54,726 nucleotides of DNA from an uncultured Candidatus Actinomarina sp. (GCA_902627635.1 CACOKA010000003.1:1-54726); one strand, 5' to 3'. Shown: positions 2,599-21,337, counted from the stretch's first letter. The notes: generated from the letters alone by a model not told the origin. A program made the numbers and translations.

Positions 2599-3237
2599 TT
2601 AAATGTCTTTTAAATTATTCTTTTTCCATTCTTCAATTCTTTTATGATCGCCAGATAGCAAAACTTCAGGAACATTAAGGTTTTCATAAATTTCAGGTCT
2701 TGTATACACAGGAAAATCAGATTTATTGTTTGTAAATGATTCATTTGTTAGAGATTCTGAATTTCCAAGAATTCCTGGAATTTTTCTTACTAGAGCTTCA
2801 ATTAAAAACATCGCAGGAACCTCTCCACCAGATACAACCGTCTGTCCGATCGCAATTTCATAATCGCTGTGCATTTCGAGTATTCTTTGATCAAAGCCTT
2901 CATATCTTCCACAAATGATATTTGCTGATTCATATCCGTGAAGATCTTGTATCAAATCTTCATTTAATTGTTGTCCACTTGGTGTCAAAAATATGTTGAT
3001 ATCTTTCTTTGATTCTTTAATTGCATTATCTAAAGGCTCAACCATTAATACCATGCCTGGTCCTCCACCGTATGGAGCGTCATCTACTTGTTTATAACTA
3101 CCAATGCCATAATCTCTTAAATTAGTACTGCTAAATTCAAATAATTTTTCTTCAATACCATGGGAAAGTACGCCAACATTAATCCACTTTTGAAATATCT
3201 CAGGGAATAAAGTAATAACGTTAAAGTTTGATAACAT
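2599..3237 (-). CDS. trmD: tRNA (guanine-37-N1)-methyltransferase
   Basis: ITLFPE, VDDAPYGGGPGMV, ICGRYEGFDQR, SGGEVPA, YTRPE, VPEVLLSGDH. Confidence 0.97.
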   Translation of the reverse strand: MLSNFNVITLFPEIFQKWINVGVLSHGIEEKLFEFSSTNLRDYGIGSYKQVDDAPYGGGPGMVLMVEPLDNAIKESKKDINIFLTPSGQQLNEDLIQDLHGYESANIICGRYEGFDQRILEMHSDYEIAIGQTVVSGGEVPAMFLIEALVRKIPGILGNSESLTNESFTNNKSDFPVYTRPEIYENLNVPEVLLSGDHKRIEEWKKNNLKDI

Positions 3238-5068
3238 TCTCTAAATTTGAAATTGCAGACAAGCTCTTTTTTTCTGTATAAAGAGTATTTCTTAAATAAG
3301 GCTTCTTTTTACTTTTCTCAATAAGTTCAACAAATTCTATATCAGTTGTGTGCTGACCGTGATCAGCACCTGAAGCTCTACTAATATTTTCATTGATTAG
3401 TGTTCCACCAAGGTCATTTACACCTGCATGAAGTAGTTTTGAGGCACCATCGTGTCCCAGTTTTACCCAACTTGCCTGAATATTATCGATTGAACCATAA
3501 AAATAAATTCTTGCAAGAGCATGGATTAGGGTTACTTCATCCCAAGTAGGTCCTGGCATACTTTTTCCTTGAAGAAAAATTGGTGAACCCATGTGAACAA
3601 AAGGCAATGGAACTATTTCAGTAAAGCCCTTAGTTCTCTTTTGAATCCTTTTAATTAAATCAAAATGATTAACCCAAGATTTTATATCATCAATATGACC
3701 AAACATAATTGTTGCTGTAGATTTAATTTCTAAAGAATGGGCCACTTCCATAACATATCCCCATTGTTCAGATGTAATTTTATCTGGACATAAATATTTT
3801 CTTATTCTGTTATCAAGTATTTCAGCTGCTGTACCTGGTAGTGTATTTAATCCTGCATCCTTAAGTAAGTTTAGGTAATCTTCGACACTTAAATTTATAG
3901 TTTCAGCACCCTGCCAAATTTCTAACGGAGTAAATCCGTGTATATGTATATCAGGTATTTCTTTTTTAATCTGTTTTACAAGTTCTAAATAAAATTTACC
4001 AGTGTACTCAGGATTAATACCCCCTTGCAAGCATACTTCAGAAGCTCCGTCGTTAAAAGCTTCAACACTTCGTTTCACAACTTCTTTTGGCTCCAAATTG
4101 TATGGTTTTTCTTTGAGGTTAAGACTTTTTGGTCCTTTGGAGAATCCACAAAAGCCACACTTAAAATAGCATTGGTTTGTGTAGTTAATATTACGATTTT
4201 TGACAAAAGTTACATCATCTTTATTAATTGAACGATTTAAATTATCTGCAACTTCTGCGATTTTGTTTATGTACTTACCGGACGTTTTAAAAAGTTCTTC
4301 TAGTTCATCATTACTAATTTCATTTCCTTCTTGAGCTTTAGATAAGATTTTTTCAAAATTAGTTGATTTGAAGGATGATGAAACGTTATATGTTAATCCA
4401 TTTAGTTTAGGAATTTCCTTTCCAGAGCCTGGAGACCAATTTGTAGGAAATCGTTTATAACCTCTTACATCTCGTAATTGTAAAAAATTAGTAAATTGAA
4501 TTTTTGATAGTAATTTTCGAGCTTTATTTACATCAACAAGAGAAAATAGTGTTCTCTCGAATAATTCGAAGTTTGAATTATTTTTTAATTCTTTTATCTC
4601 TTTATAACTCCAGTCTCTTAGCCAAAGATCTTCCACTCCTTTTGCCATAGATTCCTTTGCCTCCTCTATGGAGTTAACATATTTTGAAATTTTAAAATTA
4701 AGTGAAGGTTGAATACTCTTTAAAAATTTTATGTTTTCTAAATCTGTAAGAAGTACATAGGATGGATTTAATCGTGTAATTACGTCCATGTCATTTTCTA
4801 AATTATTAGAGGATCTATAAACTATCCTAAGGGAATCAACATCTTCAAATTCTTTCCAGTTTTTGTAAGTTACAAACCATTGAAATGACTCATCAAGTTT
4901 GTTGTCTGAAATTGTTTGAAAATCTTTTTTATGTATTTTTTCAAGATCAACTGGTTTGTCTATATAAAAAGATGAAGTTCCCTCTTTTTTTCTTGAATTT
5001 AAATAAATTTCATTATCTGAATCACATGGACGAATCCTCAGAAAAGATATGTTATTTTGTAAATTCAT
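3221..5068 (-). CDS. cofH: FO synthase subunit CofH (radical SAM) with ~220-aa N-terminal extension
   Basis: NRNINYTNQCYFKCGFCGF (CxxxCxxC), EVCLQGG, PGTAAEILD, TIMFGH, NIQASWVKLG, NDLGGTLINENISRASGA. Start placed at ATG 5068 overlapping the cofG end (ORF track starts at 5092). Confidence 0.9.
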   Translation of the reverse strand: MNLQNNISFLRIRPCDSDNEIYLNSRKKEGTSSFYIDKPVDLEKIHKKDFQTISDNKLDESFQWFVTYKNWKEFEDVDSLRIVYRSSNNLENDMDVITRLNPSYVLLTDLENIKFLKSIQPSLNFKISKYVNSIEEAKESMAKGVEDLWLRDWSYKEIKELKNNSNFELFERTLFSLVDVNKARKLLSKIQFTNFLQLRDVRGYKRFPTNWSPGSGKEIPKLNGLTYNVSSSFKSTNFEKILSKAQEGNEISNDELEELFKTSGKYINKIAEVADNLNRSINKDDVTFVKNRNINYTNQCYFKCGFCGFSKGPKSLNLKEKPYNLEPKEVVKRSVEAFNDGASEVCLQGGINPEYTGKFYLELVKQIKKEIPDIHIHGFTPLEIWQGAETINLSVEDYLNLLKDAGLNTLPGTAAEILDNRIRKYLCPDKITSEQWGYVMEVAHSLEIKSTATIMFGHIDDIKSWVNHFDLIKRIQKRTKGFTEIVPLPFVHMGSPIFLQGKSMPGPTWDEVTLIHALARIYFYGSIDNIQASWVKLGHDGASKLLHAGVNDLGGTLINENISRASGADHGQHTTDIEFVELIEKSKKKPYLRNTLYTEKKSLSAISNLENVIKL

Positions 5069-6176
5069 GTTCTTTTGGGTATCCATTTTCATTAACTACA
5101 CTACTTACTTTTTCATAAATACTTGGGCTTAACCAGTCTTTATTTATATACGAAGGATAGACAGGTAAACGAGGGATAAGATTTTGATCTGTTTGTTTAA
5201 TTACATTTTTAAGTTCGATTAGATTTGGCCAATTATGATCTGGATTTACCCAATCAATTGTTTTTGGAGATATTCCTCCAAGATCATTTATTCCAGATTT
5301 TAAGAATAATTCTATATTGCTTGCTAAATTTGGGGGTATTTGTAATGAAATATGATTTGGCAAAAATAACCGTGTTGTTGCAATAATTCTCATAAATAGG
5401 TCGTTTACAATTTCTGAATGGTTCTTCATTAGTGTATTTTGCTTGGCTCTGAAATTTTGAAGTATCACTTCCTGAATCGATGTATTTACTTCGCAGGTTT
5501 TAATAAGTTGATATATGTCTTGAATGATTTCATTTTTAGTATCAGTAATTCCCAACAATAGACCAGTGGTCATTGGATATTTTTCACTCATTGCATTTTC
5601 AAGAGTTTCTAATCTTAAGTTTATATTTTTAGTTTTTGCCCCATAATGTGCTTTACCTTTTTGAGATAAATTTTTTGAAAAGGATTCAAGCATTAAGCCC
5701 CCAGATGGTGATTGTTGCCTGTATTCTTTAATTTCGTTTCTTGACATTAAACCAGGATTAATATGGGGAAATAAATGGTATTTTTCATTCACTCTTTTTG
5801 CATTTTCAATCAAGTAATCAAAAGTTGTACTAAAACCTAATCGTTCTAGCTCCTCTTTTGCAAAAGACCATTTAATTTCTGGTTTATCCCCGAGTGTAAA
5901 AAGAGCTTCAAAACATCCTGATTTATCTCCCACATTTGCGATAGCATCAACTTCTTCAAATGTAAGATATGTACCTCCATCTTTGGGAGTTTTTACAAAA
6001 GTGCAATAAGCACAAGCGTCCTGACATAATGTTGTTAAAGGGATAAATACTTTAGGACTATAAGTAATTGTTTTACCAAAATTTTGAACTTTAACATCAT
6101 AGGCTTTATCAAGTAACTCTGAAGTTGGCATATTTCCAAAAATATAATTTTCAATTTTTTTATCTAAAGTAGACAT
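5052..6176 (-). CDS. cofG: FO synthase subunit CofG (radical SAM)
   Basis: ITYSPKVFIPLTTLCQDACAYCTF, EALFTLGDKPE, PHINPG, EVILQNFRAK, DLGGISPKTIDWVNPD; start at ATG 6176 or upstream GTG/TTG. Confidence 0.93.
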   Translation of the reverse strand: MSTLDKKIENYIFGNMPTSELLDKAYDVKVQNFGKTITYSPKVFIPLTTLCQDACAYCTFVKTPKDGGTYLTFEEVDAIANVGDKSGCFEALFTLGDKPEIKWSFAKEELERLGFSTTFDYLIENAKRVNEKYHLFPHINPGLMSRNEIKEYRQQSPSGGLMLESFSKNLSQKGKAHYGAKTKNINLRLETLENAMSEKYPMTTGLLLGITDTKNEIIQDIYQLIKTCEVNTSIQEVILQNFRAKQNTLMKNHSEIVNDLFMRIIATTRLFLPNHISLQIPPNLASNIELFLKSGINDLGGISPKTIDWVNPDHNWPNLIELKNVIKQTDQNLIPRLPVYPSYINKDWLSPSIYEKVSSVVNENGYPKEHEFTK

Positions 6177-14905: not shown

Positions 14906-15295
14906 TTAAAACTTAAAGTCAAAAGGTAATACCTCTTCAAACTTATATTTTTGAAAGTCGTTATCATTTACGACGATTACATATTCAGTATTGAATTCTG
15001 ACATCCTCTGTCTTGAAATTCCACAAGGAAATATTGCTGTCTCGCTTTTTGCATCAATACATGCAACTGCAATTGTATCGATCTTTGTCTCACCTTCTGA
15101 TATAGCTTTCAAGATTGCTACATCTTCACCACATACTGTTGCAGGATATGAAGCATTTTCAATATTACAGCCTGTATATATGTTTCCAGAGTCAGTAATT
15201 AAAGCCGCGCCTACCCGAAAATTAGAGTATGGTGCATAGGCTTTTTTAGCGATCTCTTTTGCTAAGTCTGCTAATTTTTGATCGTTAGAAGACAA
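14906..15295 (-). CDS. cdd: Cytidine deaminase, tetrameric type (third Zn-ligand Cys replaced by Ser)
   Basis: AYAPYSNFRVGAA, GCNIENASY, CGE, PCGISRQ. Confidence 0.9.
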   Translation of the reverse strand: MSSNDQKLADLAKEIAKKAYAPYSNFRVGAALITDSGNIYTGCNIENASYPATVCGEDVAILKAISEGETKIDTIAVACIDAKSETAIFPCGISRQRMSEFNTEYVIVVNDNDFQKYKFEEVLPFDFKF

Positions 15296-17944
15296 TTACT
15301 CCCCTTTCGTAATTAAAGTTTCAAAATCTTTTTTAGTTTTTGTAAATACTCTTGAGCCAGATCCTGGTTGCATAGTTACTCCATAAAGAACATCGCCCGC
15401 CTGCATAGTTTGTTGCTGATGAGTGACAATTAAAAACTGTGCATCTTCCTTTACAAACTCAAGTAAATTTAGCATTCTATGTAAATTAGCGTCATCTAAA
15501 GCAGCTTCAACCTCATCTAGTATGTAAAAAGGACTTGGGAAAGATTTAAATACAGAGAATAAAAATGCAATCGCAGCTAATGATCGTTCTCCTCCAGAAA
15601 GTAAACTCAATTTTTTCACTTTCTTACCTCTAGGTTGAACACTTATTTCTATGCCTGATTCAAGTAAGTTTTCAGGGTTTGTTAATGTTAAAGATCCCTT
15701 ACCACCAGGGAAAAGCTTTTCAAAAACTTCTTCAAAATTTACAGAAATAGTGTTGAATGAGTTCTCAATTCTAAATTTAATTTCTTCTTCGATTTCGCTT
15801 ATATATTTTAAAAGTTCTTTTTTAGTTGTATTCAATTCCTCTATGTTTGTTGATATATCTTCATATCTAGTATTTAAAGATTCAAAATCTTCGGAGGCTA
15901 AGTAATTTACAGTACCAAGTTCATCCAGTTGGTTTTCAGTTTTTGAAATAATATTATCAATATCATTTATTGACTCATTTCCAGTTTCATATTCATTGAT
16001 TTGATCAATACTTAAGCCACTTATGTTTGTTAGATTTGAGTAATAAAGAGCTCTTTGTGACATATATTCTGATTCTTTAACCATTAAGTCACTTTTTTTA
16101 TCTTTGTAATTAAATAAACTATTTGAAACATCTTCAAGATTTTCTTCAATTTCATTTATTTGCTCATCATTGTCACTATAGTTTTCATCTAGTTTTTGAT
16201 TTCTCTCTGATAAATTTGAAGAGAGTTCATTTAAAATCTTATAAGCTTGTGATGCTTTTGAATTTATAACTTCATAATTATTTATTTCCTCAGAATTATC
16301 ATTTGAATTTAATTCTTTGACCTTGTTAGAAAGGTTTTTATTTTCATCTGTAAGATATTTAATCTTTTCAGAAGATGAAATAAGTTGTTCATTTATTGAT
16401 GAAGTTTCATTTTCTAAATATTCCTTTTCGGTAAGTAATGATTCCTCCCTGTCTTTTAAAGTCTGTTTAAATTTATCAGAATTGCTATATTCACTAATTA
16501 AAGAAAGTTTCTCATCAAGACTTTTTTGTATTTCATTTTTATTAAGTAATGCATTTTCTTGTTGAATACTCAAATCTGTAATCTCTCTATGTAACAAACT
16601 ATCTGTATGAATCTTTACTTTATTAAAGGATCTAGAATTTAATTTTTTTCTATTAAGGAATTTATCATGCTTCATTAAGTGTTTATTAATAATTTTTTCA
16701 TCTTTGATCCAATTATTTAAATTGTCTGTAAATTTATCAAGTATGTCGGTTTTTGATGATAGATCATTCTTTAAGAACTTAATCTCATTTTTAAGTAAAG
16801 CTTCATTTACTTCCAAACTAGATGATTGTTTACTTTTTACATCTTCAATTTCAAGATTCAAACTTTCAATCTTTTTTGAGTTAACTGTAGCAATTTCTTT
16901 TTTATCAATTATTAGTTTGGACAATTGTGAAATTTGGTTGTTGTTTTGATAAATCTGATTTGTGTATCTTTTTAATTCGCTGGTAGATTGTTCTTTTATT
17001 CTTTCTAATGACAATTGTCTTTCAGTTGAAATTTGATAAATAGACTTAAATTCTTCACTGTATTTGTTTACTTCAGTAATTGCATTTGAAAGAAAAGATT
17101 TTACAGAAACATTTTCTCCAAAATCTTTTCTAAGTTTGTTCTTGCTTAATTTGAAAACTTCAAGTTTAGACTCAAGATCATTAATAAATCGGTTTACTTC
17201 TTCTAGTTGTGATTTGATATCATCATACTTTTTATTGAAATTTCTATATTGGAGAATATTAAGTTTTGTTTTGTTAAATTTTAAAACTTCAGACAATTCC
17301 TTATGAAGCTGAGCTTGTTCAGCCTGTTTTCTTAATGGATCAATCTGTTTTTTTATCTCACGAAGAACATCTTTTGCTCTTTTAATTTCTTTTTCCCCAG
17401 ATTCTATTCTTTTTAAAGCTTTGTCTTTTTTTAATTTATATGGGAGTATCCCAGATGCTTCTTCAATAGTAATTCTATGGTCTTCAGGCTTAGCATTCAA
17501 AATTTCTGTGATTTGGCCTTGAGAGATAATTATATGCTGTTGTTTACCTATACCCACATCATTTAGAAATTCTTGAATATCAAGTAGCCTACAAGTTAGA
17601 CCATTCATGAAATATTCAGAAGTACCATCTCTGTATAATTTTCTTCCAATAGAAACTTCACTTGAATTGAAATTGTTATTATCGCCTAGGTCAAAGACTA
17701 AATATACTTCAGCAAAACCTTTTTCTCCGAGTTTTTCTGTTCCTGCAAAAATTACATCTTCCATTTTGTTTGTTCTTAGAGAACCCGGACTTTGATTACC
17801 TAATACCCATGAAATAGCGTCAACTATATTAGATTTTCCAGATCCATTAGGACCCACAATTACGTTTGTGTATTCAGATAAATTTACTGTAGTTTTTTCA
17901 GCAAATGACTTGAACCCACTCGCAACTATTGATTTTAAGTGCAT
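15296..17944 (-). CDS. smc: Chromosome segregation protein SMC, short (882 aa), no recognisable hinge
   Basis: GFKSFA, GPNGSGKSNIVDA (Walker A), ISQG Q-loop, LLSGGE signature, ILDEVEAALD (Walker B/D-loop), VTH; heptad-rich arms; position downstream of rnc. Confidence 0.92.
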   Translation of the reverse strand: MHLKSIVASGFKSFAEKTTVNLSEYTNVIVGPNGSGKSNIVDAISWVLGNQSPGSLRTNKMEDVIFAGTEKLGEKGFAEVYLVFDLGDNNNFNSSEVSIGRKLYRDGTSEYFMNGLTCRLLDIQEFLNDVGIGKQQHIIISQGQITEILNAKPEDHRITIEEASGILPYKLKKDKALKRIESGEKEIKRAKDVLREIKKQIDPLRKQAEQAQLHKELSEVLKFNKTKLNILQYRNFNKKYDDIKSQLEEVNRFINDLESKLEVFKLSKNKLRKDFGENVSVKSFLSNAITEVNKYSEEFKSIYQISTERQLSLERIKEQSTSELKRYTNQIYQNNNQISQLSKLIIDKKEIATVNSKKIESLNLEIEDVKSKQSSSLEVNEALLKNEIKFLKNDLSSKTDILDKFTDNLNNWIKDEKIINKHLMKHDKFLNRKKLNSRSFNKVKIHTDSLLHREITDLSIQQENALLNKNEIQKSLDEKLSLISEYSNSDKFKQTLKDREESLLTEKEYLENETSSINEQLISSSEKIKYLTDENKNLSNKVKELNSNDNSEEINNYEVINSKASQAYKILNELSSNLSERNQKLDENYSDNDEQINEIEENLEDVSNSLFNYKDKKSDLMVKESEYMSQRALYYSNLTNISGLSIDQINEYETGNESINDIDNIISKTENQLDELGTVNYLASEDFESLNTRYEDISTNIEELNTTKKELLKYISEIEEEIKFRIENSFNTISVNFEEVFEKLFPGGKGSLTLTNPENLLESGIEISVQPRGKKVKKLSLLSGGERSLAAIAFLFSVFKSFPSPFYILDEVEAALDDANLHRMLNLLEFVKEDAQFLIVTHQQQTMQAGDVLYGVTMQPGSGSRVFTKTKKDFETLITKGE

Positions 17945-18012: not shown

Positions 18013-18696
18013 TTATTCCTTAATATCAGAAAATGCATTCTTTGCAGCCATTTGTTCTGCGTTTTTCTTCGATTTTCCAGTTCCTTTTCCTATGGCTTTA
18101 TTTTCAAGAAAAACAGTAGCTTCAAATTCTTTGTTATGATCTGGACCCTTTGATAAAGTTTCATAATTTACTTTTTTACCTTTTTTAGCAAAATGTTCTT
18201 GAAGACGTGTTTTGTAGTCTTTTTCTCCTGGATTTTTTGATAAATTTTCAATCAATGGATATATATATTTTGAAACAAAATTATTTACTTCTTTTAGTCC
18301 CCCATCAAAATAAATTGCAGCAATTAACGCTTCAACAGCATCCTCAATGATTGAACTTTTATCTCTCCCACCAGTGCTATCTTCTGCTTTGCTTAACAAT
18401 AAGTAATCACCTATCTCAATCTTCTTCCCAAGTTCAACGAGAGCATTTTGATCTACAGCGCCAGATCTTATTTTTGTAAGACTGCCTTCATCTAAGTTTG
18501 GATAATTGTTAAATAGAAATATTGATAAATCAAAATCAAGTATGGTATCACCGATGAATTCATATCTTTGATTAGTTTGTGAAGTTGGATCTTCATCAAT
18601 ATAAGACTTATGAGTTAGAGCTATTTTTAAATGTTCAATATCTTTAAACGAGTAACCAATGTTTTGTTCAAATTTTTTTAAATCCTTTACATTCAT
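18013..18696 (-). CDS. rnc: Ribonuclease III
   Basis: ALTHKS, NQRYEFIGD, EDAVEALIAA, dsRBD DYKTRLQE...GKSKKNAEQMAA. Confidence 0.96.
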   Translation of the reverse strand: MNVKDLKKFEQNIGYSFKDIEHLKIALTHKSYIDEDPTSQTNQRYEFIGDTILDFDLSIFLFNNYPNLDEGSLTKIRSGAVDQNALVELGKKIEIGDYLLLSKAEDSTGGRDKSSIIEDAVEALIAAIYFDGGLKEVNNFVSKYIYPLIENLSKNPGEKDYKTRLQEHFAKKGKKVNYETLSKGPDHNKEFEATVFLENKAIGKGTGKSKKNAEQMAAKNAFSDIKE

Positions 18697-19664
18697 AGTT
18701 CACTTGAAACTTCTGTAAATTTATTAATGAATCGCTTTTCTACAGCTCTACTTGTAAACAATAATGCGTTCTTAATAGCTTCAGAGTTTGATGAACCATG
18801 GCCAATAATTACAAGTCCATTAACACCAAGTAAATAAGATCCATTCGTTGAATTTGGATTAAGCATACTTTTTACAGGTGAAATTGCATTTTTTACAGGT
18901 ACTAAAAGAGGTTTGAATAAATTTTCTTTTAAAGATTTTGAAATAAGATCTTGCTGTAACTTTGCAACTCCTTGCAAAGTTTTTAGTACAACATTCCCTG
19001 TAAAACCATCTGTAACAAAAACATCAACTTTTGAATTTGCAAAATCTTTACCTTCAACATTTCCAATAAAATTTAATTGTGATGATTTGAGAAGCTTAAA
19101 TGTAGCTTTTTCTAACTCTCTTCCTTTTGAACTTTCTTCACCGTTGTTGATAAGTCCAATTCTTGGATTTTCGATATCAAATAAAAGTTCAGATAATTTT
19201 GAACCCATGATTGCAAATTGATATAGAACTTTTGGCTTTACTTCTAAGTTTGCCCCTGAATCAACCAGTATTACCTCATTTTCTTTACCTGGTAATACAG
19301 ATGCAATAGTAGGCCTTGTTACACCTTTAATTTTTCCTAATACTGATATTGCACCAATAAGTGTTGCCCCTGTTGAGCCTGCAGAAAATACTGCGTCAGC
19401 TTTTTTTTCCTTTACTAGATTTAATGCTCCAATAATTGATGAATCTTTATTTGATCTTATAGCTTTTGCAGGATCATCATCCATTGATATGACTTGTGGA
19501 TAATTTATTACCGGTATTTTTTCATTACCAAGATAACTTTTGATAAGATTTTCGTCACCTGAAAGAATTACATCGACTCCTTCTTTTTTTGCAAGAATAG
19601 CCCCTTTTACAACTTCTTCAGGTGCAGAGTCACCACCCATTGCATCAACAGCAATCGTACTCAT
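18693..19664 (-). CDS. plsX: Phosphate acyltransferase PlsX
   Basis: IAVDAMGGD, SAGSTGA, DSGAN, GNVEG, VTDGFTGNVVLK, IGHGSS. Confidence 0.96.
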   Translation of the reverse strand: MSTIAVDAMGGDSAPEEVVKGAILAKKEGVDVILSGDENLIKSYLGNEKIPVINYPQVISMDDDPAKAIRSNKDSSIIGALNLVKEKKADAVFSAGSTGATLIGAISVLGKIKGVTRPTIASVLPGKENEVILVDSGANLEVKPKVLYQFAIMGSKLSELLFDIENPRIGLINNGEESSKGRELEKATFKLLKSSQLNFIGNVEGKDFANSKVDVFVTDGFTGNVVLKTLQGVAKLQQDLISKSLKENLFKPLLVPVKNAISPVKSMLNPNSTNGSYLLGVNGLVIIGHGSSNSEAIKNALLFTSRAVEKRFINKFTEVSSEL

Positions 19665-20376: not shown

Positions 20377-20880
20377 TTATTCAGGATCAGAAATTTTTCT
20401 TGGTTGTCTTAAGTTTGCTTTCTCGCGTTCAATAATTTCATTTAATTCATTAATTTTAAATTGAATTTCTTGAAGTTTTGTATCAAGTTTATCCTCGACA
20501 TTGGCTCTATTTAATATTGCTTCTTGCTCAGCTTGTTTTACAAGAGCATTAGCTTCCACAACCGCTTCTTGTAAAACAAAGGATTCTGAGATTAATCTTG
20601 ATGACTCTTTGTCTGCATTTGCAAGTATTTCCTCTGCTTCATCTTTTGCTTTTTTTAAATAAAGCTCTTGTTCTCTGACAATGAATCTAGCAGTTCGAAG
20701 TTCAACAGGCATTAAGTCAATTAAATTTTCAACAAGTTTAAGAAGTTCTTTTTTATTTGATTTATTATTTAGAAAAGAATTTGATGACAAATTTTCTTTT
20801 AGTAACTCAAGCTGATCAACATATTCCATTTTTACTTGACCACTCACAACATCTTCAATAGAAATTTCCCCTTTAGACAT
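20377..20880 (-). CDS. Coiled-coil protein of the coaD-yceD locus (SepIVA/YlmH-neighbour type, ATP synthase b-like repeats)
   Basis: MPVELRTARFIVRE, AKDEAEEILANA helical pattern; conserved position between coaD and DUF177. Confidence 0.65.
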   Translation of the reverse strand: MSKGEISIEDVVSGQVKMEYVDQLELLKENLSSNSFLNNKSNKKELLKLVENLIDLMPVELRTARFIVREQELYLKKAKDEAEEILANADKESSRLISESFVLQEAVVEANALVKQAEQEAILNRANVEDKLDTKLQEIQFKINELNEIIEREKANLRQPRKISDPE

Positions 20881-21337
20881 CTTTAAGTCTTTCAACGACA
20901 ATTGATGGAACTAATGCATTTACGTCACCACCATAAGAAAAAATTTCTTTAACCATCGAACTTGAAACATATCCATATTCAGGAGAAGCAGGGATAAATA
21001 TTGTTTCAAAATCAGCTAAATTAAAATTCATTTGAGCCATTTGAAACTCATAATCAAAATCAGTCATTGCCCTTAAACCTTTAACAATTGCACTTACATT
21101 CATTTGTTTTGCAAAATCTACCAACAATCCTTCAAAACTTTTAATTTCTACATTTTTGTAATCTTTAAGAATTTCTATCAACATACTTTCCCTTTGCTTT
21201 ACATCGAACATTGACTCTTTTTGAGGATTTACTACTACACCAACAATTACATCATCAAAAACGTTAGATGATCGTTTAATTACATCGATATGTCCATTTG
21301 TTGGTGGATCAAAAGATCCTGGTATTAAAATTTTCAT
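20873..21337 (-). CDS. coaD: Phosphopantetheine adenylyltransferase
   Basis: PGSFDPPTNGH, KGLRAMTDFDYEFQMA, VSSSMVKE. Confidence 0.97.
   Translation of the reverse strand: MKILIPGSFDPPTNGHIDVIKRSSNVFDDVIVGVVVNPQKESMFDVKQRESMLIEILKDYKNVEIKSFEGLLVDFAKQMNVSAIVKGLRAMTDFDYEFQMAQMNFNLADFETIFIPASPEYGYVSSSMVKEIFSYGGDVNALVPSIVVERLKDV

What the first reader, a model, noticed from the sequence alone, without database searches (positions are those of the whole stretch)
15296..17944. SMC with intact ATPase heads but no hinge or zinc hook
Seen: 882 aa with all head motifs, at the canonical rnc-smc locus. The middle has no Gly-rich hinge motif (Gx6Gx3GG) and no CxxC hook, only a short basic stretch KHLMKHDKFLNRKKLNSRSFNKVKIH (about residues 420-446, nt ~16610-16690) between the arms. 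Established: bacterial Smc is about 1150-1200 aa and dimerises through a ~150-aa hinge needed for ring formation. Inference: a minimal condensin with a new dimerisation apex or a hinge-independent mechanism, possibly a streamlining adaptation. I recall short Smc proteins in other streamlined marine bacteria but cannot verify this here.
Basis: partly seen in the sequence, partly recalled or inferred. Interest (0 to 1): 0.72.

Follow-up and report, generated by a model that had tools for sequence, protein, structure and literature searches.

The report
Hinge-less Smc of marine Actinomarina
This is the real, conserved chromosome-organising Smc ATPase of the abundant ocean bacterium Candidatus Actinomarina, which has lost the central hinge that normally joins two Smc arms; the oddity was already published in 2025, and how the protein still works is unknown.

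Summary
The frame at 15296-17944 (-) encodes an 882-aa Smc with all head motifs, no SMC_hinge match and no CxxC. It scores above NCBIfam's Smc equivalog cut-off and lies after plsX-rnc.

It is not an assembly error. I found 45 distinct sequences of 881-888 aa, down to about 50% identity, that align almost without gaps. Independent metagenome contigs bridge the apex without indels.

The hinge family was found in 0 of 65 genomes of the order. It was found in 122 of 124 genomes of the class's other families. ScpA, ScpB and ParB are kept in relatives. Record titles name Candidatus Actinomarina.

The model is all-helical from 167 to 744, with a five-residue turn at 433-437. The apex is the least conserved part, and its basic charge is clade-specific.

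A "hinge-less SMC" clade of marine Actinobacteria was published in 2025 (PMC12153180), and this scan had noted it on other DNA. I rate it already known. Here I add the host lineage, the retained partners and the fixed arm length. How it dimerises stays open.

The parts
15296..17944 (-). smc coding sequence, 882 aa plus stop; hinge-less Smc
17447..17944 (-). N-terminal half of the ATPase head (residues 1-166): Walker A at 31-38, Q-loop at 141-144
16649..17446 (-). N-terminal arm helix (residues 167-432, 266 aa), with predicted breaks at 276-281 and 375-376
16493..16816 (-). Distal hairpin or 'tip' (residues 377-484): two helices of about 50 residues, bounded by helix breaks next to conserved motifs
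16634..16648 (-). Predicted apex turn, residues 433-437 (KKLNS), where the hinge would lie
   Evidence: sequence positions
16607..16684 (-).
15845..16633 (-). C-terminal arm helix (residues 438-700), with predicted breaks at 485-488, 547-550, 586-595, 642-658 and 677-681
15299..15844 (-). C-terminal half of the head with neck helix (residues 701-882): signature at 782, Walker B at 806, D-loop at 813, H-loop at 840
18013..18696 (-). rnc (RNase III), directly upstream of smc
18693..19664 (-). plsX, upstream of rnc
14906..15295 (-). Cytidine deaminase gene abutting the smc stop codon

Best explanation
This is the single, orthologous Smc of Candidatus Actinomarina (order Actinomarinales, class Acidimicrobiia). 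An ancestor of the order lost the hinge domain (about 175 aa) and about 50-65 residues of each arm strand. Each monomer is predicted to be a head plus an all-helical arm of about 266 residues that turns at a five-residue loop (433-437). The protein is under purifying selection and still works with ScpA, ScpB and ParB. All of that is shown or nearly shown; I put identity and functionality at about 0.95. The rest is inferred and about 0.45 likely. With no hinge and no zinc hook, I propose that the distal hairpins of two monomers (residues about 377-484) pair side by side, and that this pairing extends along the aligned arms. That contact would act as a minimal constitutive dimer interface standing in for the hinge. 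ATP-engaged heads and the ScpA bridge would then still close a DNA-holding compartment.
For: Orthology: TIGR02168 scores 627.9 bits against a cut-off of 567.35. The gene follows plsX-rnc. It is the only long SMC_N frame in 5 of 5 near-complete relatives. The best structural matches are condensin, Smc5/6 and prokaryotic Smc chains. Real and selected: 22 of 25 genus genomes have a full-length match of 879-882 residues without stops. The 45 distinct sequences of 881-888 aa have one single-residue gap before the C-terminal tail. dN/dS is 0.02 in the heads, 0.12-0.16 in the arms and 0.155 in the tip. DNA contigs of two studies bridge the apex with no indel or joint. Lineage-wide loss: SMC_hinge is found in 0 of 65 genomes of the order. 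In the class sample it is found in 0 of 26 genomes of this family against 122 of 124 in other families. Partners: ScpA in 25 of 31 genus genomes, ScpB in 24 of 31, ParB in 5 of 5. Anatomy: the model is helical from 167 to 744, with a turn at 433-437 and arm pLDDT mostly 80-93. For a distal contact: in B. subtilis, loss of hinge dimerisation inactivates Smc, yet a Rad50 zinc hook can replace the hinge. In the same study only arm lengths of 344-321 and 267-253 aa worked (PMC5344682, passages). The 266-aa N-strand found here falls in the second range. Even the apex loop has no indels. Conserved residues bracket the tip: E378, N380, E381, A382, D415, R453, E454, K479, F492 and K493.
Against: The tip (401-480) is the least conserved part of the protein, with column entropy of 2.1-2.3 bits. 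Its hydrophobic fraction is 0.31-0.36, the same as the arms, so no second hydrophobic seam is visible. Its net charge varies from -4 to +9 across the order. No tool here showed the fold-back packing or any dimer contact directly. The monomer model rests on 16 sequences, has pTM 0.33 and poorly modelled heads. My arm-length boundaries come from DSSP and need not match the definition used in the B. subtilis study. scpA and scpB were not found in the window's own 77%-complete assembly.
Confidence: 0.45

Rival explanations
1. There is no constitutive apex contact. Two hairpin monomers are joined only at the base, by ATP-driven head engagement and the ScpA bridge (neck of one Smc, cap of the other). 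DNA would be held in the kleisin compartment or clamped on the heads, and the arms would act as levers and not as a ring.
For: The tip is the most variable region, has no raised hydrophobicity and has no conserved charge. There is no hinge, no Cys pair and no separate hinge gene in 65 genomes. ScpA and ScpB are retained.
Against: In B. subtilis, loss of apex dimerisation inactivates Smc (PMC5344682, Introduction passage). A free tip would be expected to tolerate indels, yet none occur in 45 sequences. Arm length is fixed to the residue, which suggests that the distal end must meet a partner in register.
Confidence: 0.3
2. Intermolecular antiparallel coiled coil. The chain does not fold back. 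Two chains run antiparallel, giving a double-length rod with a composite head at each end.
For: This protein has no Gly or Pro between residues 277 and 642, so nothing in the sequence forces a turn.
Against: The model places a loop at 433-437 between two confident helices. Other members of the order carry prolines exactly at the aligned tip. The conserved pairs D415/R453-E454 and 378-382/492-493 lie symmetrically about residue 435. All solved SMC-family arms that matched are intramolecular.
Confidence: 0.05
3. The protein no longer acts as a condensin. Having lost the hinge, it has taken another role, for example a repair-type SMC-like ATPase, or it is decaying.
For: The 2025 paper raises a different function as one possibility (PMC12153180, section 15). 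The architecture of head, coiled coil and no hinge recalls Rad50/SbcC and RecN.
Against: The equivalog HMM scores above its cut-off, while the Rad50, RecN and SbcC models score far below theirs: 53 against 700, 43 against 408 and 22 against 478 bits. Heads have dN/dS of 0.02. ScpA, ScpB and ParB are kept. No other condensin was found: MksF in 0 of 5 genomes, and no second long SMC_N frame.
Confidence: 0.07
4. Assembly or gene-calling artefact: a deletion of the hinge in this assembly only.
For: None found.
Against: 59 of 67 fetched loci of the order give ORFs of 881-888 aa. Seven of the other eight stop at contig ends and one may be frameshifted. The loci include single-cell genomes, MAGs and contigs of about 1 Mb. 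All 120 listed database hits are 882 aa and lack the hinge family. Contigs from two independent DNA studies bridge the apex without indels.
Confidence: 0.01

Closest known systems
'Hinge-less SMC' environmental clade from Tara Oceans OM-RGC (Sussfeld et al., Environ Microbiome 2025;20:65, PMC12153180)
   Same: Marine, very abundant and actinobacterial. SMC heads plus coiled coil, with no hinge and no CxxC. Clusters with SMC and not with Rad50/SbcC by structure. Not accompanied by a regular SMC in single-cell genomes (section 15 read). All of these match what I find here.
   Different: The paper does not name the host. It suggests 'an unknown lineage' within Actinobacteria, and the text has 0 occurrences of Actinomarin, OCS155, ScpA or kleisin. 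It does not examine partners, arm length or apex conservation. I could not check identity at sequence level, because the readable supplements list only OM-RGC identifiers and one supplement was too large to read.
Bacterial Smc of Smc-ScpAB (B. subtilis type; NCBIfam TIGR02168)
   Same: Ortholog by HMM score and gene neighbourhood, with the same head motifs. ScpA, ScpB and ParB are present in the lineage.
   Different: No hinge domain. The arm is about 266 residues per strand, against 329 in a class relative and 344 in B. subtilis. Total length is 882 aa, against 1150-1200.
Engineered B. subtilis Mini-Smc and Smc(zinc hook) chimeras (Burmann et al., Mol Cell 2017, PMC5344682)
   Same: These are shortened arms and a non-hinge apex that still support function. 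Arms of 253-267 aa were functional there, and the natural arm here is about 266 aa.
   Different: The engineered proteins keep a strong dimerisation module, either a hinge or a zinc hook. The natural protein shows no recognisable module.
Rad50/SbcC and RecN (SMC-like ATPases without a hinge)
   Same: An ABC-type head plus an antiparallel coiled coil that ends without a globular hinge.
   Different: There is no CxxC zinc hook, as the protein has a single Cys. The family HMMs score far below their cut-offs. Rad50 ranks below the SMC chains in the fold search. That RecN dimerises through its coiled-coil tip is my recollection and was not checked here.

Membership tests
Bacterial Smc (Smc-ScpAB; TIGR02168) | Equivalog HMM score above the curated cut-off | tested here: met
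   627.9 bits against a cut-off of 567.35
Bacterial Smc (Smc-ScpAB; TIGR02168) | ABC-type head with Walker A, Q-loop, signature motif, Walker B, D-loop and H-loop | tested here: met
   All found and invariant in 16 relatives
Bacterial Smc (Smc-ScpAB; TIGR02168) | Long helical arm between the two head halves | tested here: met
   DSSP helix from 167 to 744 with short breaks, arm pLDDT mostly 80-93. Antiparallel packing itself was not seen directly.
Bacterial Smc (Smc-ScpAB; TIGR02168) | Central hinge dimerisation domain (Pfam PF06470) | tested here: not met
   No hit at E<=1 in the protein or at E<=10 in the own genome. Found in 0 of 65 genomes of the order. Hinge-bearing class relatives hit the family in the same kind of scan. 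No strands in the modelled middle.
Bacterial Smc (Smc-ScpAB; TIGR02168) | Kleisin ScpA and kite ScpB encoded in the genome | tested here: inconclusive
   Not found in the window's 77%-complete assembly. Found in 25 and 24 of 31 genus genomes, including one with a near-identical Smc.
Bacterial Smc (Smc-ScpAB; TIGR02168) | Conserved position downstream of rnc, single copy | tested here: met
   plsX-rnc-smc gene order. One long SMC_N frame in each of 5 near-complete relatives.
Published hinge-less SMC clade (PMC12153180) | Marine actinobacterial SMC lacking both hinge and CxxC, abundant in ocean metagenomes | tested here: met
   The largest database cluster has 1087 member sequences. 20 runs from 15 marine studies hold the stretch.
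Published hinge-less SMC clade (PMC12153180) | Same sequences as the paper's cluster 9 | not testable with these tools
   The readable supplements give OM-RGC identifiers only, and one supplement is too large to read
Rad50/SbcC | CxxC zinc hook at the coiled-coil apex | tested here: not met
   One Cys in the protein and no CxxC in any of the 20 relatives of the order examined in that call
Rad50/SbcC | Family HMM above cut-off | tested here: not met
   Rad50 models score 26-53 bits against cut-offs of 700-1087. SbcC scores 22 against 478.5.
RecN | Family HMM above cut-off | tested here: not met
   TIGR00634 scores 43 bits against a cut-off of 407.85
MukBEF/MksBEF | MksF/MukF-type kleisin partner | tested here: not met
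   PF11855 found in 0 of 5 near-complete relatives. MukB chains rank below SMC chains in the fold search.

The most novel reading that the evidence does not exclude
Actinomarina runs a ParB-loaded Smc-ScpAB motor with no apex dimerisation at all. Two free hairpin arms would be joined only at the heads and by the kleisin. DNA would then be held and moved without a closed SMC ring. That would show the hinge is dispensable for the core Smc mechanism in nature, and not only replaceable.
Probability: 0.3. Interest if true: 0.8.

Novelty: already known. Interest (0 to 1): 0.4.

Why it matters
The hinge is treated as a defining and essential part of SMC proteins. What it contributes beyond dimerisation (a DNA gate, DNA binding, obstacle bypass) is still debated. 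Here one of the most abundant ocean bacteria has gone without a hinge across a whole order, while keeping ScpA, ScpB and ParB and fixing its arm length to the residue. That makes it a natural experiment on what the hinge is for. The phenomenon itself is in print.

Tried and rejected
1. Complex prediction on two copies of residues 282-585, using the 16-row alignment, scored 0.34, 0.34 and 0.38. The mark is 0.42 and the three controls scored 0.00. The verdict was 'no answer', so I use it neither for nor against binding.

2. The listing of cluster members on ten short SMC representatives was not sent, because the shared database is switched off. The organisms behind the other hinge-less representatives therefore stay unknown.

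3. Literature searches for 'SMC / hinge / hingeless' found 2 papers, of which 1 was listed, a plant Smc5/6 paper. 'Actinomarina / SMC' found 2 unrelated papers. 'Smc / lacks a hinge / coiled-coil / bacteria' found 1 C. elegans paper. None found the 2025 paper, which writes 'hinge-less'. The lead came from earlier notes of this scan.

4. It also found nothing in six hinge-bearing relatives, so I dropped it as a test.

5. I looked for a conserved basic, DNA-binding apex and rejected the idea. The charge is +7 to +9 in 13 of 45 sequences, +4 or +5 in 7, and -4 to +1 in 25.

6. I looked for a second hydrophobic seam in the tip and did not see one.

7. Contigs from two metatranscriptome libraries cover most of the gene. 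The tool warns that DNA can be present in such libraries, so this does not show transcription.

8. The ESM Atlas search gave only leads to short SMC_N clusters in other phyla, of 817, 872 and 736 aa. No structure search was possible.

9. The supplements of the 2025 paper hold no sequences, so I could not make a sequence-level match to the paper's cluster.

Full report
**What is there**

The window has about 31% G+C. The frame at 15296-17944 on the minus strand encodes 882 residues.

- Pfam finds SMC_N (1.6e-49) spanning residues 2-859 and no SMC_hinge, even at E<=1.
- NCBIfam's Smc equivalog model TIGR02168 scores 627.9 bits, above its cut-off of 567.35. The Rad50, RecN and SbcC models score far below theirs.
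- Walker A, Q-loop, signature, Walker B, D-loop and H-loop are all present and invariant among 16 relatives.
- The protein has a single cysteine and no CxxC.
- RNase III and PlsX genes lie directly upstream on the same strand. A cytidine deaminase gene abuts the stop codon.

**Not an artefact**

The window lies in an assembly of 812,883 bases that is 77% complete.

- In the genus, 22 of 25 genomes (own included) carry a full-length match of 879-882 residues without stops, down to 51% identity. Two more matches are cut by contig ends, and one 63%-complete genome has none.
- From the loci, 59 of 67 give ORFs of 881-888 aa. Seven of the other eight stop at contig ends and one may be frameshifted. 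Some of these loci probably come from the same genomes, so I count 45 distinct sequences.
- The 45 sequences align with one single-residue gap before the C-terminal tail.
- All 120 best database hits are 882 aa and lack the hinge family. The largest cluster has 1087 member sequences.
- Contigs of two independent marine DNA runs bridge the apex with no indel and no joint.

**Whose gene it is**

Record titles of the near relatives read Candidatus Actinomarina, Candidatus Actinomarinales or OCS155 cluster. They include single-cell genomes and contigs of about 1.0 Mb.

**How far the loss goes**

The SMC_hinge family was found in 0 of 65 genomes of the order, and in 0 of the 12 that are at least 90% complete.

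In a class-wide sample of genomes at least 85% complete, it was found in 0 of 26 genomes of this family. In all other families it was found in 122 of 124, and I did not examine the two misses.

Class relatives of 966, 1065 and 1161 aa hit the hinge family in the same kind of protein scan, while four divergent members of the genus do not. No split-off hinge gene appears anywhere in the order.

**Partners**

ScpA and ScpB were not found in the window's own incomplete assembly. They occur as neighbouring genes in 25 and 24 of 31 genus genomes, including one whose Smc is near-identical.

ParB is present in 5 of 5 near-complete relatives. In those five genomes the Smc frame is the only long SMC_N protein, and an MksF-type kleisin was found in 0 of 5.

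**Anatomy**

BLASTP against a 1161-aa class relative anchors residues 1-315 to its 1-314, and 676-872 to its 959-1155. This leaves 360 residues here against 644 there.

The Pfam match in that relative starts at residue 504. I take its hinge to span about residues 496-672. That extent is my estimate: it is based on that match, on the alignment and on general knowledge of the domain. On that basis the loss is about 175 residues of hinge plus roughly 50-65 residues per arm strand.

The AlphaFold2 model has these properties:

- It was built from 16 sequences, with mean pLDDT 73.6 and pTM 0.33. The heads are poorly modelled and the arms mostly score 80-93.
- It is helical from 167 to 744.
- It has a five-residue turn at 433-437.
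- It has short helix breaks at 276-281, 375-376, 485-488, 547-550 and 586-595, placed roughly symmetrically about the turn.
- It has no strands where a hinge would be.

This protein has no Gly or Pro between residues 277 and 642. Foldseek ranks condensin, Smc5/6 and prokaryotic Smc chains first, ahead of Rad50 and MukB.

**Selection and conservation**

dN/dS over 25 pairs sampled from 46 pairs of 85-97% identity:

| Region | dN/dS |
|---|---|
| Heads | 0.02 |
| Arms | 0.12-0.16 |
| Tip | 0.155 |

The tip (401-480) is the least conserved part, with entropy of 2.1-2.3 bits. Its hydrophobic fraction is no higher than in the arms.

The basic charge of the apex is specific to subclades. It is +7 to +9 in 13 of 45 sequences, +4 or +5 in 7, and -4 to +1 in 25. 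Several sequences carry prolines at the aligned tip.

Conserved residues bracket the tip: 372-387, D415, R453, E454, 476-479 and 492-493.

**Mechanism**

I read passages of Burmann et al. 2017 (PMC5344682). They report three relevant results for B. subtilis:

- Loss of hinge dimerisation inactivates Smc.
- A Rad50 zinc hook can replace the hinge.
- Only certain arm lengths work, namely 344-321 and then 267-253 residues.

The N-strand here is 266 residues by my DSSP boundaries, which need not match their definition. Together with the residue-exact length conservation, this fits a 'tuned arm' that must meet a partner in register.

My preferred reading, which is inferred and about 0.45 likely, is that the distal hairpins pair laterally and replace the hinge as a minimal dimer contact.

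The main rival, at about 0.3, is that there is no apex contact at all and the dimer is held only by the heads and ScpA. I think an intermolecular antiparallel coiled coil, a change of function, and an artefact are all unlikely.

**Prior knowledge**

Earlier notes of this scan pointed to Sussfeld et al. 2025 (PMC12153180). I read its section 15 and searched its text and readable supplements.

The paper reports an abundant 'hinge-less' SMC clade of marine Actinobacteria with these properties:

- It has no CxxC.
- It clusters with SMC and not with Rad50/SbcC by structure.
- It is not accompanied by a regular SMC in single-cell genomes.

The paper does not name Actinomarina, ScpA or kleisin: these terms have 0 occurrences in the text. 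It suggests an unknown lineage as the host.

I could not match sequences, because the supplements give identifiers only and one was too large to read. That the two are the same clade therefore rests on matching descriptions.

The scan has also noted this protein twice before on other Actinomarinales genomes. It has noted other hinge-less SMCs in Patescibacteria and Lokiarchaeia, which I did not test.

**Verdict**

This is a real, conserved and biologically intriguing feature. It is already described, so I rate it 'already known' with moderate interest.

- the host lineage;
- the order-wide extent of the loss;
- the retention of ScpA, ScpB and ParB;
- the gapless arms of about 266 residues;
- the finding that the apex carries no conserved module.

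Noticed in passing
proteins P0129, P0139, P0245, P0248, P0270, P0268: Among the 150 best cluster representatives, six further short SMCs (763-1023 aa) show SMC_N but no SMC_hinge at E<=0.001 and no CxxC. Their compositions differ widely (some are Ala/Arg/Gly-rich), so they are not from this order. Two more, P0202 and P0204, have hinge-like stretches below threshold. Hinge loss may have happened several times.
   Followed up: partly
L030 (966 aa), L031 (1065 aa); open frames of 996-1102 aa: Several genomes of the same class have Smc proteins with an intact hinge but clearly shortened arms. Arm shortening therefore occurs in this class without hinge loss.
   Followed up: partly
window 20377-20901 (-): A 174-aa ORF between the YceD-family gene and the CoaD-like gene has no Pfam match at 1e-5. 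It looks charged and helical.
   Followed up: no
window 14906-15298 (-): The smc stop codon (15296-15298) directly abuts the start of a cytidine deaminase gene (15295). There is no ftsY after smc. That ftsY usually follows smc in other bacteria is my recollection.
   Followed up: no
one genome of family f5 (genus g19) and one of family f19 (genus g30): Two genomes of the class outside this family also gave no SMC_hinge match. The cause could be incompleteness, divergence or a further loss.
   Followed up: no
L078 (match at 3001-5641): In one single-cell assembly the smc match is 2641 bases long, which is not a multiple of three. The longest ORF there is 596 aa, so there may be a frameshift or sequencing error in that record.
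   Followed up: no
G108:C4:73572-73883: A hinge match lies in an open frame of only 679 aa in one class relative. This may be a split or truncated smc.
   Followed up: no
ESM Atlas rows 3, 5 and 10: SMC_N clusters of 817 aa (Pseudomonadota), 872 aa (Spirochaetota) and 736 aa (Actinomycetota) score 0.99 by features. They are leads to other short SMC forms. The output does not show whether they lack a hinge.
   Followed up: no
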